DNA of 64,000 bases from Eledone cirrhosa (lineage: Eukaryota): positions 32,860,001-32,924,000 of the forward strand of contig OZ024751.1 of assembly GCA_964016885.1 (NCBI GenBank), written 5' to 3'. The notes beneath the pieces are model-generated. The model was not told where the DNA came from. It was given only the letters and a program-made list of their open reading frames with translations, and made no database searches. Below are positions 17,851 to 60,214 of the stretch, piece after piece. Position 1 is the first letter of the stretch; each line of letters begins with the position of its first letter. Made by a program: the position numbers and the translations under genes.

Positions 17851-17952
17851 TGAATATAGACATAGAATATTCGAAAATATTCTGTATGTTTATAATAAAC
17901 ATTTTGAAGACCTAATCGCTATAGAATAGAATACGTCACGTATTACAATTAG

Positions 17953-18041
17953 ATTCTCGATAAAAGCAAGGGAAGTAATCTACGCGTTTCATTCTTGTTG
18001 GAAATCATCAGGACTACATATCCAGTGCTTTTATCGAGAAT
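17953..18041 (-). ncRNA. Type I hammerhead ribozyme, short palindromic stem III (copy 1)
   Basis: Minus strand reads auucucgauaaaagca-cuggauau-GUAGUC-CUGAUGA-U-UUC-caacaa-GAA-U-GAAA-CGC-GUA/GAUUAC-uucccu-ugcuuuuaucgagaau. Stem I is 6 bp, extended by a perfect 16-bp helix; stem III is the palindrome ACGCGU; predicted cut between 17981 and 17980. Position 10.1/11.1 is a non-canonical U-U. Confidence 0.8.
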
Positions 18042-18262
18042 GACACAGCTAGAGACTTATAGAATACTTAGCTGTGTACAGGAACTGGTTTGAAAGAGCG
18101 GTTGCCGGTCCGGCAGAAATTAGAAATTGGAATAAATGCTCTGAAATAGCGATATATATGTGAATATAGACATAGAATATTCGAAAATATTCTGTATGTT
18201 TATAATAAACATTTTGAAGACCTAATCGCTATAGAATAGAATACGTCACGTATTACAATTAG

Positions 18263-18351
18263 ATTCTCGATAAAAGCAAGGGAAGTAATCTACGCGTTTC
18301 ATTCTTGTTGGAAATCATCAGGACTACATATCCAGTGCTTTTATCGAGAAT
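18263..18351 (-). ncRNA. Type I hammerhead ribozyme, short palindromic stem III (copy 2)
   Basis: Identical to 17953-18041, offset by 310 bp; predicted cut between 18291 and 18290. Confidence 0.8.
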
Positions 18352-18371
18352 GACACAGCTAGAGACTTATA

Positions 18372-19428
18372 TATATACATATACATACATATATATATAT
18401 ACATATACATACATATATATATACATATGCATACATATATATATGTATATATATATGTATGTATATGTATTTATGTATATATACATATACATACATATAT
18501 ATATACATATACATACATATATATATATATATACATATACATACATATATATATATATATACATATACATACATATATATATATATATACATATACATAC
18601 ATATATATATATATACACATATACATACATATATATATATATACATATACATACATATATATATATATACATATACATACATATATATATATACATATAC
18701 ATACATATATATATATATACATATACATACATATATATATATACATATACATACATATATATATATACATATACATACATATATATATATACATATACAT
18801 ACATATATATATATACATATACATACATATATATATATACATATACATACATATATATATATACATATACATACATACATATATATATATACATATACAT
18901 ACATATACATATATACATATATACATATACATACATATATATATATACATATACATACATATATACATATACATACATATATATATATACATATACATAC
19001 ATATATACATATACATACATATATATATATACATATACATATACATATACATACATATATATATATACATACATATATATATATACATACATATATATAT
19101 ATACATACATATATATATATACATACATATATATATATACATACATATATATATATACATATACATACATATATATATATACATATACATACATATATAT
19201 ATATACATATACATACATATATATATATACATATACATACATATATATATATACATATACATACATACATATATACATACATACATATATATATACATAT
19301 ACATACATACATATATATATACATAACATATATATATACATACATACATATATACATACATATATATATACATACATATATATATACATACATACATATC
19401 TGTATACATATCATATATACATACATAC
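18372..19428. repeat. (TA)n/(TACA)n microsatellite array
   Basis: Direct inspection. Confidence 0.97.
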
Positions 19429-21837
19429 AGATCTGTATGGGAAACGGATGACGGATTCAACAGACAAGCTAATTGGCTAAAAGAACTGGAACAGGACTAC
19501 TGCCAACATGTCCAGACAAAACAATATGACATAGATGGGTCAATACTGGAAACAGCTCTACAGAAAATGTCGAATAGGAAATCGCCAGGCCCAGACCTCA
19601 TTACAGGATACTGGTTGAAGAATTTCACTTTCTATCGGCAAGATCTCATACGGCTGTTTACAGAAACCATTAAGGGCACACAAGAACTGCCCAGATGGTT
19701 ATCAACTGCCTCTACTCTCCTCATTCCCCAAAATAGCCAAACCACCCTTGCTAAAAATTACCGCCCAATTGCCTGCCAAAACATCATGTATAAATTATAT
19801 ACTGGGTGCCTTAACCTGTTCTTACAGGATCACTGTGCTACCAACAACATCATAACACCTGAGCAAGCTGGTGGAAAGAGGGAGGTGTGGGGTTGCATAG
19901 ATCACCTACTAACTAACAAAATGATTCAGGAAAAAACAACAAAGAATCGCAGAAACATGACTGTCGTGTGGCTGGACTATCAAAAAGCATTTGATAGTGT
20001 ACCTCATGGGTGGATTGTTAAGGCTTTACAGTTAGCTAAAGTCCCACAACCATTGGTAGCTGCTGTTGAACGCCTGACCAAGAACTGGTACACCAGTTTG
20101 ATCCTTAGAGGTGAGAAGGAGCAGGTTAAGACTGATAAGATACATTACCAGAAGGGCATCTTTCAGGGTGATAGCTTGTCAGTGCTACTCTTCGTTCTCT
20201 CACTGAATCCACTATCTTACCTACTCAGGAAACAAGGTCGACAAAGAAGTGGGACCAGAAGTATCTCCCATCTTTTCTTTGTTGATGACCTGAAGTTGTA
20301 TGGGCCAAATATCAATGACATCAAGAAACAATTGGACCTCATTACACAATTTTCAACCGACATCAAAATGAAATTTGGTGAGTCCAAGTGTGCATATTTG
20401 GCAGTAAAACGTGGAAGAGCTGTGCCCTCCTCTAGAAATCTAGAGATGAACGGCCTGACAATACAACCTCTGCAGTCAGGTGACAACTACAGATATCTTG
20501 GACAGGATGAGAATGTCAGATATGATGGACCCATAAATAAGGAGAGAACCAGACTGAATACCTCAGAAGAGTAAAGAAAATATGGTCATCAGAACTGTCA
20601 GCATACAACAAATACATTGCCCACAATACTTATGCTGTGCCAATTCTAACGCCAACATTTGGCCTACTGAACTGGTCATTGCAAGAACTAAGTGAGATGG
20701 ATGTTAGAACTCGAAAACTTCTGTGTTACTGGGAACTTTAACATCAATGGTGATGTGGATAGGCTATACTTCTCACGCAAGGAAGGTGGCCGGGGTCTAA
20801 AATCAATATTAACAACATATGAGACCCGGATAGTGACACTGAAGCAACACCTTCAACAGAGGAAAAAGGTTGGCAACCATCTTGCCCAGGTTTATGACCA
20901 TGAAAAAAGAAATATCATTAGAATAGCGACTGATCTGGAGGAGAGATATGGAATAAAGCCCGATATAAATCTCTCACCCAGAGAAATCGGAAGATCCTAT
21001 TCAATGTTCAAACAAGAAAAAAAAATTGACCAATTTACAGAAAAAGTTGTGCATGGATACTTGAGGCGTAAAACACAGACCATAGAGGGGATAAACCACT
21101 CAAAAAGCCTGGCATGGAGTTCCGACAAGTTTATGACATCACACCTTGAGGGATATCTCTATGCAATACAGGAACAAGAACTCCCTACCAAATATCTGCT
21201 GCACAAAAGAGGAGGGCCAGCAGCTGACAATAAATGTAGGCTATGTAAAACAAAGATCGAGGATGTAAGCCACATTGTTGCCAGCTGCGAAAGAATGTCA
21301 TCTCGCTACTACCTCCCCATGAGACACGATGGGATAGCTAGAACCATCTGGAACGCACTTCGGAAAACAAAATCAACAACAAACGAGGAAGAATATATTG
21401 AGACAGATGGCACTAAGGAATACTGGTGGAACCTGAAAATAAAAACTGCCACCAAATTAAAGCACAACCGGCCTGATATTGTAGTTTGGGACCACACATT
21501 GAAAACGTGTTCTGTTGTGGAGATCAGCTGCCCACTTGATGTAAACGTTGTCAGAAAAATACAGGAGAAGGAGGACATCTACGGACCATTGATGAGGAGT
21601 TTACAAATCCAGTATCCAAGATACACCTTTAGCTTCATACCCATCATTATTGGTGCTACGGGTTATATACCAACCCGCTTGGACCAAAGTATGACTGAAC
21701 TTGGATTTGCGGACCAAAGTATGACTGAACTTGGATTTGCGGACAAAAAGCGCAGCTCCCTAATTCATAGTCTACAAATGGCTGCGATAGCTGGCACCTT
21801 CAAAATTTGCAAAATATTCTTGCGATTCAAGGGATGA
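19429..21837 (+). pseudogene. Disrupted RT/RLE ORF of the R4-type element
   Basis: The frame is open from 19429 ([17 protein letters not shown]...). It shifts near 20550 (conserved EYLRRVKKIWSSELSAYNK continues in another frame) and shifts back near 20724. There is an in-frame 30-bp duplication at 21681-21740; stop at 21837. Confidence 0.88.
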
Positions 21838-33886: not shown

Positions 33887-34080
33887 ATATTAACAAATGG
33901 AAACTATATTTATAAAACCATATTTATTTCATTATACATATTTCAAGGACACCAAGTTAAATTATGGTGTGCTTTCATCAGATAATATAGATCAGTTTTA
34001 TAAATAAATATTGACATACCCTTAAAGAATGCAACCATTACTGTTGGAAGCTCCCGGATAGTGGAGTTGTAGCTTTAATT

Positions 34081-56074: not shown

Positions 56075-56222
56075 ATTGCTTTGCAGCATAGAGTTACCCA
56101 CCTTTACGGTCTGAGTTCAAATCCCGCCGAGATTAACTTTGCTTTTCATCCTTACGGGGTAAAATAAAGTACCAGTAATGTACTGGGTAATTGCTGGCCT
56201 TGTGCCAAAAGTAGAAACAATT
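56075..56222 (+). mobile_element. 5'-truncated SINE family A
   Basis: B-box, body and tail. Confidence 0.85.
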
Positions 56223-56356
56223 GTTAGTAGTTTTTTAAATAGATTTCTTATCTGAGTTACAGAACTATGATTTGGTAGAATGATAGTTGACTGTTTTCGG
56301 GGTAATTACCAAATATCTGATGTAGTTGAAATTTAATTACATTATTAAATTTGTTT

Positions 56357-56545
56357 AGCGGCGGATTGGCAGTATCGGTAGAGAGTCGGACGCTATGCTT
56401 TCCAGCATAGTTACGTCCCTTTACGGTCTGAGTTCAAATCCCGCCGAGGTTTACTTTGCCTTTCATCCTTACGGGGTCGATAAAATAAAGTACCAGTAAT
56501 GCACTGGAAATTGCTGGCCTTGTGCCTAAAGTAGAAACAATTATT
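56357..56545 (+). mobile_element. Apparently full-length SINE family A
   Basis: gcggcggattggcagtatcggtaga ... gagttcaaatccc ... gtagaaacaatta. Confidence 0.88.
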
Positions 56546-56676
56546 ACATTTGTTTAGCACTATTTCCTGTATTTAATACTTTAAAACTTGGCTATTTGCT
56601 GTGTTAGCTGGTGCAACACGTGGGGTAAATGGTTAAATATTTATATCTAGATATCAGTCCACACACTCTCATATTT

Positions 56677-58237: not shown

Positions 58238-58271
<34 letters not shown>

Positions 58272-58697
58272 TTTACACATACACCAATTAAACAAGGTCA
58301 CAGATATATATGTGTTTTGGCAACCATTCACGATGTGGCTCAATGAAGAATTAATAAATTAAACAATCAGAGCCAAATACTATAAAGTAAAGCATGTCCA
58401 TAGAATCATTTGATAATATATATACATCATTTCTTCTCCCAATTAGCATAATTAACCACACAAAAAAAATCAATTAGACCAGGCTATAAGATTAAAAGGC
58501 ACCTATGAAGAAACAGTAAATAAATAAACGATAGCAGCGTCTTCGCGGCCAACCGCTATAGAATATATATATCTGTGACTTTGTTTAATTGGTGTATATG
58601 TAAATATTTATATTTAATAATCTGCCATAAGGTTGAGATGCAATTTGGGCAATATTGGGCTGCTCTTTCTAGCAACCAACCCACTCGCCGTAAGCAA

Positions 58698-58771
58698 CCA
58701 ATCACACTCTTTCTGACTTGACCACTGCCACGTCACAGTTCTTAGCCATTTTGAATTCGTGTTTGGCGGGA
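58698..58771 (+). promoter_or_regulatory. Cluster of Pol II promoter-type motifs upstream of the hammerhead
   Basis: CCAATCA (58698), GCCACGTCA CRE/ATF-like (58727), GCCATTTT YY1-like (58745) and TTTGGCGGGA E2F-like (58762) within 75 bp. Confidence 0.4.
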
Positions 58772-58792
58772 GCCACTTCAGAAAATATTCTG

Positions 58793-58890
58793 TCCTAGCG
58801 AGTTTGTCCCCTGAAGAGTTCGAAACTCGAGATTTATCCTTAATAGGATATCTCAAAATGAGAACGAAACCCATGGGTCGGGATTTAGGG
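58793..58890 (+). ncRNA. Type I hammerhead ribozyme with canonical core and extended stem II
   Basis: Stem I GUCCC(58806-10)/GGGAU(58880-84), extended by UCCUAG/UUAGGG; CUGAAGA (58811-17); stem II GUUC/GAAC with inner hairpin UAUCCU-uaau-AGGAUA; GAAA (58866-69); palindromic stem III ACCCAUGGGU; GUC cut predicted after 58879. Confidence 0.88.
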
Positions 58891-59185
58891 ATTTAATTCT
58901 GATAGAAATGCTTATGTATATAAGCATTTCTAACTTTAATTTTATACCTAATTGTGTATGGTTGACCGTATATTTAATTAATTTCCACGTGCTTTTGAAA
59001 TGTTGGGTAAATATTCTATAGCGGTTGGCCTTGAAGACGCTGCTATCGTTTATTTATTTACTGTTTCTTCATAGGTGCCTTTTAATCTTATAGCCTGGTC
59101 TAATTGATTTTTTGTGTGGTTAATTATGCTAATTGGGAGAAGAAATGATGTATATATATTATCAACTAATTTTATGGACATGCTT

Positions 59186-60214
<1,029 letters not shown>

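What the first reader, a model, noticed from the sequence alone, without database searches (positions are those of the whole stretch)
58793..58890. Canonical hammerhead with a predicted 7-bp Watson-Crick pseudoknot between the stem I bulge and a stem II internal loop
Seen: every core nucleotide is canonical (CUGAAGA, G10.1-C11.1, GAAA, GUC). Stem I has a one-sided 7-nt bulge CGAGUUU (58799-58805) exactly complementary to AAACUCG (58823-58829) in the internal loop of a long stem II. A 13-bp hairpin follows at 58903-58932. Known: loop1-loop2 contacts are what make natural hammerheads fast at physiological Mg2+. Inference: a probably active ribozyme with an elaborate tertiary architecture, from a different family than the 17.9-kb pair.
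Basis: partly seen in the sequence, partly recalled or inferred. Interest (0 to 1): 0.85.

Follow-up and report, generated by a model that had tools for sequence, protein, structure and literature searches.

The report
Pseudoknotted hammerhead in a jumping repeat
This is a hammerhead self-cutting RNA motif carried by a 689-base non-coding repeat that has spread through this animal genome in the manner of Penelope-type jumping genes; it is likely braced by a 6-7 base-pair long-range helix, and some copies of the repeat begin exactly at its predicted cut, which suggests that it does cut in living cells.

Summary
The type I hammerhead core and the CGAGUUU/AAACUCG complementarity are real. The motif is not a stand-alone gene. 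It lies in a 689-nt non-coding repeat (family C, hundreds to a few thousand copies) with Penelope-like insertion marks: fixed 3' end into (TA)n, 118-nt tail, partial tandems, inverted truncated copies. The pseudoknot is kept in both C subfamilies (97% paired, almost no two-sided changes). Two other hammerhead repeat families in the genome have a different complementary 7-mer pair at the same place. The outer stem I is not conserved, and the 13-bp hairpin is private to this copy (1 of 147). Of 29 copies starting near the ribozyme, 8 start exactly at the predicted cut and 2 in the 16 nt upstream. That is likely a footprint of in vivo cleavage, although 42 of 44 unselected copies read through the site. 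Pseudoknotted hammerheads and hammerhead retro-repeats are known; this long-stem-II internal-loop architecture in such repeats was not found in my literature searches. The scan had noted Penelope-tail and phage pseudoknot hammerheads elsewhere, not this form. No assay or RNA data. New variant of a known kind.

The parts
58565..59194 (+). 5'-truncated direct copy of the 689-nt family C repeat unit (unit positions 67-686), ending in (TA)n
   Evidence: BLAST of the natural tandem unit of L007 against L001; 87-100% identical copies genome-wide
58378..58569 (-). inverted, 5'-truncated copy of the unit's 3' end (unit 500-689)
   Evidence: inverted repeats I2/I3
58260..58377 (-). 118-nt 'tail' (unit 1-118) after the inverted copy, running into (TA)n
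   Evidence: the same tail piece in 39 of 106 loci
58793..58798 (+). possible outer stem I 5' arm (pairs 58885-58890); subfamily-limited, probably not essential
   Evidence: 52% paired in 32 representatives, absent in C2
58799..58805 (+). pseudoknot 5' strand, directly 5' of stem I
58806..58810 (+). stem I 5' arm (pairs 58880-58884), 5 bp
   Evidence: 97.5% paired, two pairs with two-sided changes
58811..58817 (+). catalytic core C3-A9
58818..58822 (+). basal stem II 5' arm (pairs 58861-58865); 4 bp here, fifth position is a G.A mismatch in this copy and a G-C pair in subfamily C2
   Evidence: U-A/C-G covariation at the second pair
58823..58829 (+). pseudoknot 3' strand = 5' side of the stem II internal loop
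58830..58853 (+). distal stem II hairpin capping the internal loop
58854..58861 (+). unpaired A-rich 3' side of the internal loop; must span the pseudoknot helix (contacts unknown)
58866..58869 (+). core G12-A15.1
58869..58878 (+). stem III, 3 bp plus 4-nt loop; the 10 nt are a perfect palindrome able to form a dimer helix
   Evidence: duplex of two copies -17.8 kcal/mol
58879..58880 (+). predicted cleavage site (after C17), unit position 381/382
   Evidence: hammerhead consensus; 8 of 29 nearby 5' junctions of other copies fall exactly here
58903..58932 (+). 13-bp hairpin made by a private 10-nt inverted insertion (58903-58912 mirrors 58923-58932); not part of the ribozyme
   Evidence: 1 of 147 copies; also absent from public contigs laid on the stretch (table 4)

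Best explanation
This is a type I hammerhead motif inside a non-coding 689-nt repeat with Penelope-like insertion marks, whose fold is likely held by a 6-7 bp pseudoknot that invades the internal loop of a long stem II, and which likely cuts part of the repeat's RNA after C58879 before a Penelope-type reverse transcriptase, presumably supplied in trans, copies it into (TA)n microsatellites. Shown from sequence: core, stems I-III, the complementary 7-mers, the repeat unit and its end structure, the pile-up of copy 5' ends at the scissile bond. Inferred: (a) the pseudoknot forms and takes the place of the usual non-canonical loop 1-loop 2 contact, aligning stems I and II and paying for a fold that is otherwise 5-8 kcal/mol above a slipped misfold; (b) transcripts running through tandem units are cut incompletely, so most templates are uncut or re-ligated and a minority start at the cut; (c) reverse transcription starts at the unit end or the tail end at a nick in AT-rich DNA and stops early, giving truncated, tandem and inverted copies. 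The window copy is one such insertion with a single ribozyme, so it could cut a passing transcript once but could not release a unit-length monomer by itself.
For: Repeat context: 988 and 2,442 first-look candidates for the ribozyme part and the 3' part (40 scored each); of 106 loci, 93 end in (TA)n at the unit end or tail end, 39 carry the 118-nt tail, 47 an inverted piece, 36 a partial-tandem junction; these match the marks listed for PLEs (PMC8557442 passages). Selection on the fold: stems I and II covary between subfamilies (41 two-sided cells, 0 of 500 shuffles). Pseudoknot: 97.3% paired, variable positions stay U-A/U.G or C-G/U.G; 59 of 76 C1 and 26 of 29 C2 copies keep 6-7 contiguous pairs; families A and B have other 7-mers in the same position that match their own stem II (7 of 7, or 6 of 7 in one A subfamily) and match other families' stems at 3-5 of 7. 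In vivo footprint: 8 of 29 junctions exactly at the cut versus 2 in the 16 positions upstream (binomial P about 3e-6 for one of 31 positions); 2 more exact starts among 58 copies found without reference to the ribozyme. Abundant PLE reading frames with RT and GIY-YIG motifs, also ending in (TA)n, exist in the genome. Pseudoknot disruption slows a natural hammerhead more than 100-fold (PMC3088659 passage).
Against: No cleavage assay and no RNA data. Inside family C the pseudoknot has only 2 cells with two-sided change, each in a single copy, so conservation could partly be shared ancestry; families A and B resemble each other downstream of the ribozyme (71% over 69 nt) and are not fully independent. 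Nested folding disfavours the hammerhead (-17.9 to -21.1 vs -25.8 kcal/mol; stem I and III pair probabilities about 0.03; z -0.4). 42 of 44 unselected copies that reach the site read through it. Many junctions lie 3-14 nt downstream at TA-like microhomologies (19 of 29), and in family A the signal is weaker and confounded by a TA microhomology (4 of 19 loci at -2..0). A fourth long-stem-II family (D, 639 matches) shows no such pseudoknot in the copies read. The one autonomous PLE family examined has a minimal hammerhead and no BLAST similarity to the A, B or C units, so the helper is not identified.
Confidence: 0.7

Rival explanations
1. The pseudoknot forms but restrains the ribozyme: the monomer is slow, and cutting happens mainly when two copies pair through the palindromic stem III (double hammerhead), which keeps most templates intact.
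For: Stem III is 3 bp within a perfect palindrome (dimer duplex -17.8 kcal/mol); 55 of 76 C1 copies have this palindrome; 42 of 44 copies read through the site; weak palindromic helix III and dimer cleavage are typical of metazoan type I motifs (PMC4209133). A satellite-RNA hammerhead whose loop contact attenuates cleavage is cited in PMC6155905 (passage and reference title); that its contact is a loop I / stem II bulge helix is recalled, the papers were not held.
Against: 17 of 29 C2 copies have a non-palindromic loop (GA or AA centre); only 4 of 106 loci hold two full ribozymes on one strand; most invertebrate type I motifs cleave as monomers (PMC7761336 passage).
Confidence: 0.2
2. The repeat is a non-LTR retrozyme proper: tandem transcripts are cut to 689-nt monomers, circularised, and the circle is the template, which explains read-through of the cut site and tandems longer than one unit.
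For: Head-to-tail tandems with one type I hammerhead per unit (L033, L039, L130, L216, L219); families A and B form arrays of 483-485 nt; the unit folded as a circle is more stable than 25 shuffles (z -2.7); natural hammerheads with tertiary contacts ligate well (PMC7229834 passage). Compatible with the best explanation rather than exclusive of it.
Against: No circular RNA seen; unit is larger than the 170-400 nt reported for animal retrozymes; copies have two fixed 3' ends rather than random permutation; few loci hold two ribozymes.
Confidence: 0.3
3. The repeat is simply the pseudo-LTR of an autonomous Penelope-like element that I did not find; the hammerhead is that element's own.
For: All PLE end marks are present; only a small part of the family was sampled.
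Against: The unit follows itself head to tail with no ORF between; the tail is the unit's own start; no locus showed a PLE ORF joined to the unit (ORF scans); in L037 a PLE lies next to it but is separated by (TA)n and has its own pLTR and minimal hammerhead.
Confidence: 0.12
4. The complementarity is incidental (low-complexity sequence inherited without selection) and the motif is an inactive relic.
For: Little two-sided covariation in the pseudoknot; A and B 7-mers are low-complexity, reached by 0.8-6% of shuffles; unfavourable nested energy.
Against: Same position in three families with different sequences and in one further single locus (L147); shuffle P 0.001 for this copy; compensatory changes in stems I and II; 5' junctions at the scissile bond.
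Confidence: 0.07

Closest known systems
Hammerhead ribozymes with a Watson-Crick pseudoknot between stems I and II (Perreault et al. 2011, PMC3088659; includes the human C10 type I motif with a 5-bp pseudoknot)
   Same: Canonical core; base-paired helix in place of non-canonical loop 1-loop 2 contacts; predicted in about 40% of hammerheads and all three types (passages).
   Different: Here the acceptor is the internal loop of a 48-nt stem II capped by a further hairpin, with no linker on either side, in a high-copy animal repeat. The paper's alignments and supplements were not seen and may hold similar cases.
[quoted passage not shown] 2021, PMC7936874)
   Same: 5-bp stem, 6-10 nt internal loop capped by an extra hairpin of about 20 nt, whose 5' strand forms a Watson-Crick pseudoknot with the other arm (passage).
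   Different: Mirror image: there the long arm is helix I of a type III motif and the contact is about 4 bp; here the long arm is helix II of a type I motif and the contact is 6-7 bp.
Metazoan non-LTR retrozymes (Cervera and de la Pena 2020, PMC7229834)
   Same: Non-coding tandem repeats with one type I hammerhead per unit and a short helix III; PLEs proposed as their helpers (passages).
   Different: Unit 689 nt (reported 170-400); pseudoknot instead of the archetypal loop contacts; circular RNA not shown here; explicit PLE end marks are seen here, while a term search of that paper for target site, truncated, inverted and microsatellite gave 0 hits.
Penelope-like elements and their pLTR hammerheads (Cervera and de la Pena 2014, PMC4209133; Craig et al. 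2021, PMC8557442; Frangieh et al. 2024, PMC11167929)
   Same: Partial tandems, inverted 5'-truncated copies, optional tail, (TA)n targets, a type I hammerhead in the repeat; non-autonomous head-to-tail derivatives are described for Chlamys.
   Different: No ORF; tail 118 nt (30-40 bp typical; 111-118 nt initiation sites in the Anolis element); full hammerhead with helix III and a pseudoknot rather than the minimal motif; Frangieh et al. found no RNA ends at the cut, whereas here genomic copies start at it.
ENE / U-rich internal loop triple helices (review PMC7583470)
   Same: In sister families A and B both sides of the stem II internal loop are U-rich, and four U's lie in parallel register with A-U pairs of the pseudoknot (18 of 20 and 13 of 13 copies).
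   Different: The window's family C has an A-rich third strand and no such triples (0 of 76 C1 copies); the triple is a prediction only.

Membership tests
Type I hammerhead ribozyme | Core C3 U4 G5 A6 N7 G8 A9, G12 A13 A14 A15.1, U16.1, H17 | tested here: met
Type I hammerhead ribozyme | Three helices around the core, helix I open-ended | tested here: met
   stems I and II covary across subfamilies; stem III 97.9% paired
Type I hammerhead ribozyme | Rfam RF00163 gathering score | tested here: not met
   20.9 bits vs 34, penalised by the 36-nt loop II insert; a model-fit failure, not a missing core feature
Type I hammerhead ribozyme | Self-cleavage after H17 | not testable with these tools
   indirect only: 8 of 29 nearby copy starts at the scissile bond
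Pseudoknot-stabilised hammerheads | Four or more Watson-Crick pairs linking stems I and II, conserved | tested here: met
Pseudoknot-stabilised hammerheads | Two-sided covariation within the family | tested here: inconclusive
   2 cells only; cross-family equivalence in A and B
Pseudoknot-stabilised hammerheads | Rate loss on disruption, rescue by compensation | not testable with these tools
   needs an assay
Penelope-like element (autonomous) | ORF with PLE reverse transcriptase and GIY-YIG endonuclease | tested here: not met
   no ORF in or joined to the unit in the loci scanned
Non-autonomous Penelope-like element | Partial tandems, inverted 5'-truncated copies, optional tail, fixed 3' end, microsatellite target | tested here: met
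   36, 47, 39 and 93 of 106 loci
Non-autonomous Penelope-like element | Sequence shared with an identified autonomous partner | tested here: inconclusive
   no similarity to the one PLE family examined, 30 loci; other PLE families not examined
Metazoan non-LTR retrozyme | Non-coding tandem repeat with a type I hammerhead per unit | tested here: met
Metazoan non-LTR retrozyme | Unit of about 170-400 nt | tested here: not met
   689 nt vs range quoted in PMC7229834
Metazoan non-LTR retrozyme | Abundant circular RNA | not testable with these tools
   no RNA run available for this stretch
ENE-like U.A-U triple helix | U-rich internal loop engaging an A-rich strand in parallel register | tested here: not met
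   0 of 76 C1 copies; sequence pattern met in sister families A and B only, structure untested

The most novel reading that the evidence does not exclude
This genome holds thousands of copies of an undescribed hammerhead class in which the strand just 5' of stem I invades the internal loop of an extended stem II, forming a 7-bp pseudoknot that the displaced strand wraps as a triple helix (ENE-like U.A-U in families A and B, A-minor in C). These ribozymes process, and circularise, non-coding RNAs that parasitise Penelope reverse transcriptases, which would give direct genomic evidence that animal retrozymes are mobilised by PLEs and that their hammerheads cut the transposition template in vivo.
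Probability: 0.27. Interest if true: 0.72.

Novelty: new variant of a known kind. Interest (0 to 1): 0.5.

Why it matters
The pseudoknot as such is ordinary, but two things around it bear on open questions. First, the role of hammerheads in Penelope-like elements is called unclear in the papers read, and the one biochemical study found cleavage dispensable and no RNA ends at the cut; copies that begin exactly at the scissile bond are a record in the genome that cut RNA was used as template. Second, PLEs were proposed as the helpers of animal retrozymes on co-occurrence; a non-coding hammerhead tandem repeat with the full set of PLE end marks makes that testable. Three natural sequence solutions to one tertiary architecture also give a ready set for structure and kinetics, including a possible triple-helix brace.

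Tried and rejected
Rfam at gathering threshold: no hit in the window. Public runs: no RNA holder listed; contigs of three runs of one sample were laid and only confirmed family variants and the private nature of the insertion at 58902-58911. Outer stem I as a conserved element: rejected. 13-bp hairpin as part of the ribozyme: rejected. A second helix between 58791-58797 and the distal stem II loop: considered by eye, broken in subfamilies with other loop sequences, dropped. A local hairpin G8-A9-G10.1-UU with AACUC as a conserved switch: probability about 0.19 in this copy, weaker in other subfamilies, not pursued. Family D as a fourth example: rejected; apparent matches came from inverted junctions. 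Two repeated CUGAGGA matches in L146 lie beside a mariner-like ORF and show no hammerhead stems. Search for the autonomous partner: one abundant PLE family examined, no sequence link. Clustering of 5' ends at unit 397-406, 59-67 and 118: put down to TA-like microhomology, not cleavage. Rows left out of counts: 3 non-family rows in the 123-row alignment; 5 unassigned motifs reported separately; L262-L264 were fetched because they start at the cut and are not in the 29; 31 of 131 rows were not listed and not examined; loci fetched twice were removed. Three papers could not be read. Earlier notes on this genome: none.

Full report
Observation. A scan of both strands for type I hammerheads with paired stems found this site and one weak chance-like match at 33,981. 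Rfam gives Hammerhead_1 at 58806-58884 with 20.9 bits (gathering 34, E 0.023) because of a 36-nt insert in loop II; nothing in the window passes gathering. Chance: 1 of 683 7-mers of the repeat unit, the real one, pairs 7 of 7 in any of six registers, and 20 of 20,000 shuffles of the stem II segment do.

Context. The flanks form a 190-nt inverted repeat. The ribozyme region has 988 first-look candidates in the 3.0-Gb genome; the 40 scored are 87-100% identical; the 3' part has 2,442 candidates. The repeat is a 689-nt non-coding unit with the predicted cut after unit position 381. The window holds unit 67-686 on the + strand (58565-59194), preceded by an inverted unit 500-689 and a 118-nt tail (58260-58569), between (TA)n tracts. 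Of 106 non-redundant loci, 93 end in (TA)n at the unit end or tail end, 39 have the tail piece, 47 an inverted piece, 36 a partial-tandem junction, 4 two full ribozymes on one strand. Partial tandems, inverted 5'-truncated copies, an optional tail and (TA)n targets are the marks listed for Penelope-like elements (PMC8557442, passages). No ORF lies in or is joined to the unit in the loci scanned. A PLE with RT, a cysteine-rich linker and GIY-YIG motifs lies beside one copy (L037; weak RVT_1 hit E 7e-6; the Neptune label is my reading from recalled motifs). It is abundant (35,108 candidates, 80 scored, many long open frames), ends in (TA)n, has a minimal hammerhead, and shows no BLAST similarity to the units in 30 loci. 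The repeat is therefore read as non-autonomous, helper unidentified.

What in the fold is conserved. In 32 representatives picked to span subfamilies, stem I (5 bp) is 97.5% paired and basal stem II 89.8%, both with two-sided changes; the whole structure has 41 two-sided cells, reached by 0 of 500 shuffles, and slid controls fall to 17-47% paired (relatedness inflates the shuffle test). The pseudoknot is 97.3% paired; its changes are U-A to U.G and C-G to U.G, with only 2 two-sided cells in single copies. The outer stem I is 52.4% paired and absent in subfamily C2, which lacks an 8-nt segment on the 3' side. G58829 can pair with C58854 instead of C58799, which improves the nested energy by 3 kcal/mol, so six pairs are secure. 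The 13-bp hairpin is due to a 10-nt inverted insertion in 1 of 147 copies.

Cross-family test. A pattern for hammerheads with a long stem II matched 2,332 places against 10 for the reversed control (first 100 listed). They fall mainly into families A (483-nt unit), B (485-nt unit) and C. All three have a stem I of about 5 bp, a 5-7 bp basal stem II, and a 7-mer directly 5' of stem I that is complementary to the 5' side of a stem II internal loop capped by a further hairpin. Among copies with an intact core, hand-picked for diversity: C1 49 of 76 with 7 contiguous pairs and 10 with 6; C2 22 and 4 of 29; B 12 of 13 with 7; A 7 of 20 with 7 and 12 with 6 of 7 around an A.G mismatch. Each 7-mer matches its own family's stem II at 6-7 of 7 and the others at 3-5. 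Shuffle rates for A and B are 0.8-6% because these tracts are low in complexity, and A and B share 71% over 69 nt downstream, so they are not fully independent. One further locus (L147) has 6 of 7. Family D (639 matches) has a long stem II but no such pairing in the 16 or so copies read. In A and B the displaced strand has four U's in parallel register with A-U pairs (18 of 20, 13 of 13), the pattern of a U-rich internal loop triple helix (PMC7583470, passages); in C it is A-rich and gives none (0 of 76 C1). It may equally just avoid pairing with the opposite loop strand.

Is it active? Without the pseudoknot the hammerhead fold is 5-8 kcal/mol above a slipped alternative and stems I and III have pair probabilities near 0.03; the 7-bp duplex is worth -6.3 kcal/mol as a bimolecular helix, and two copies of the palindromic stem III pair at -17.8. 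So activity would need the pseudoknot, dimerisation or both. The genome gives indirect evidence of cutting. A targeted pattern found 5 copies starting at the predicted cut next to (TA)n. A wider pattern allowed starts from 16 nt upstream to 14 nt downstream (131 overlapping rows, 100 listed, 29 distinct loci). Of the 29, 8 start exactly at the scissile bond, 2 upstream (-2, -4) and 19 downstream, mostly at TA-like microhomologies; P is about 3e-6 for 8 of 29 at one of 31 positions. The cut position has no TA microhomology, and stalling at structure would be expected at the 3' edge of stem I rather than at this bond (inference). Among 58 copies found by their 3' end alone, 44 reach the site, 2 stop exactly there and 42 read through, so cut templates are a minority or are re-ligated. 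In family A, 4 of 19 loci start at -2..0, confounded by a TA microhomology, and 2 upstream (read by eye). No RNA run could be consulted.

Mechanism. Shown: the motif, its host repeat, the conserved complementarity, the junction pile-up. Inferred: the 5' extension of stem I invades the stem II internal loop and stacks between basal and distal stem II, holding stems I and II side by side as such helices do in other hammerheads (PMC3088659: disruption lowers the rate up to more than 100-fold, compensation restores it). Transcripts of tandem units are partly cut; a PLE reverse transcriptase in trans starts at the unit end or tail end, as shown in vitro for an Anolis PLE (PMC11167929, passages), and inserts at (TA)n. 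The window copy has one ribozyme and cannot release a monomer on its own; whether it is transcribed is unknown, and I did not test whether it lies in a gene.

Against what is known. Watson-Crick pseudoknots between stems I and II are predicted in about 40% of hammerheads. The nearest architecture I found is the mirror image in type III motifs of toad and termite HDV-like RNAs (PMC7936874). Type I hammerheads in non-coding tandem repeats are non-LTR retrozymes, with PLEs proposed as helpers (PMC7229834, PMC7761336). PLE hammerheads are usually minimal (PMC4209133). Nine library searches turned up no type I motif with an internal-loop pseudoknot in a long stem II in animal repeats, and none on copies truncated at the cut. 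All 13 papers were seen as term-search passages only (also PMC13725137, PMC10085705, PMC6155905, PMC6466107, PMC3185516), no supplements were read, and the library lacks most subscription journals; three relevant papers were not held. The inhibitory loop I / stem II helix of the satRPV hammerhead is recalled, with only its title and a one-line mention seen.

Verdict. Observation partly confirmed, interpretation partly supported. A new structural variant of a known ribozyme in a known kind of mobile repeat, with better than usual indirect evidence of activity and a testable link between retrozyme-like repeats and Penelope elements. Interest 0.5.

Noticed in passing
window 17853-18152 and 18153-18370, - strand: The 17.9-kb pair: a 300-nt tandem unit with a type I hammerhead-like motif (short stem II closed by U.U instead of G-C, palindromic stem III) inside (TA/CA)n; no similarity to families A-C.
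   Followed up: partly
L074:1355-3207 (+), L071-L080, L148, L149: Family A: 483-nt tandem unit with an internal (TA)n tract and a long-stem-II hammerhead whose internal loop is U-rich on both sides, facing an A-rich 7-mer; arrays of up to 9 units in the listing. Candidate ENE-like triple helix.
   Followed up: partly
L034:6056-7923 (-), L081-L085: Family B: 485-nt tandem unit, same architecture, four U's in exact parallel register with four A-U pairs in 13 of 13 copies.
   Followed up: partly
L141-L145, L161-L172: Family D: 639 matches of a hammerhead with a very long, possibly branched stem II and a poorly defined stem I, mostly short truncated pieces next to (TA)n; no pseudoknot seen.
   Followed up: partly
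L147:4900-5040 (-): Single hammerhead of a further family with a 6-of-7 match between the strand 5' of stem I and the stem II internal loop and a U-rich third strand.
   Followed up: no
L037:400-4300 (-), L173-L202: Abundant Penelope-like element with RT, Cys-rich linker and GIY-YIG motifs, minimal hammerhead in its pLTR, many copies with open frames of 1,000-1,200 codons; a candidate helper.
   Followed up: partly
L253 (G000:C4:290326050): A copy starting at the predicted cut is preceded by a run of about 10 extra G, possibly non-templated addition at the end of a cleaved template.
   Followed up: no
L239 (G000:C2:184484747): Direct and inverted copies both begin at the predicted cut, two bases apart.
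   Followed up: no
window 58687-58737: CCAAT-like and CRE-like motifs (recognised from recall) upstream of the ribozyme in the unit; possible internal promoter.
   Followed up: no
window 19327-21834 (+): Fragments of a non-LTR retrotransposon (RVT_1 and zf-RVT hits).
   Followed up: no
window 56092-56546 (+): Two diverged copies of a roughly 320-nt-spaced SINE-like repeat (families D13, D15, D17).
   Followed up: no
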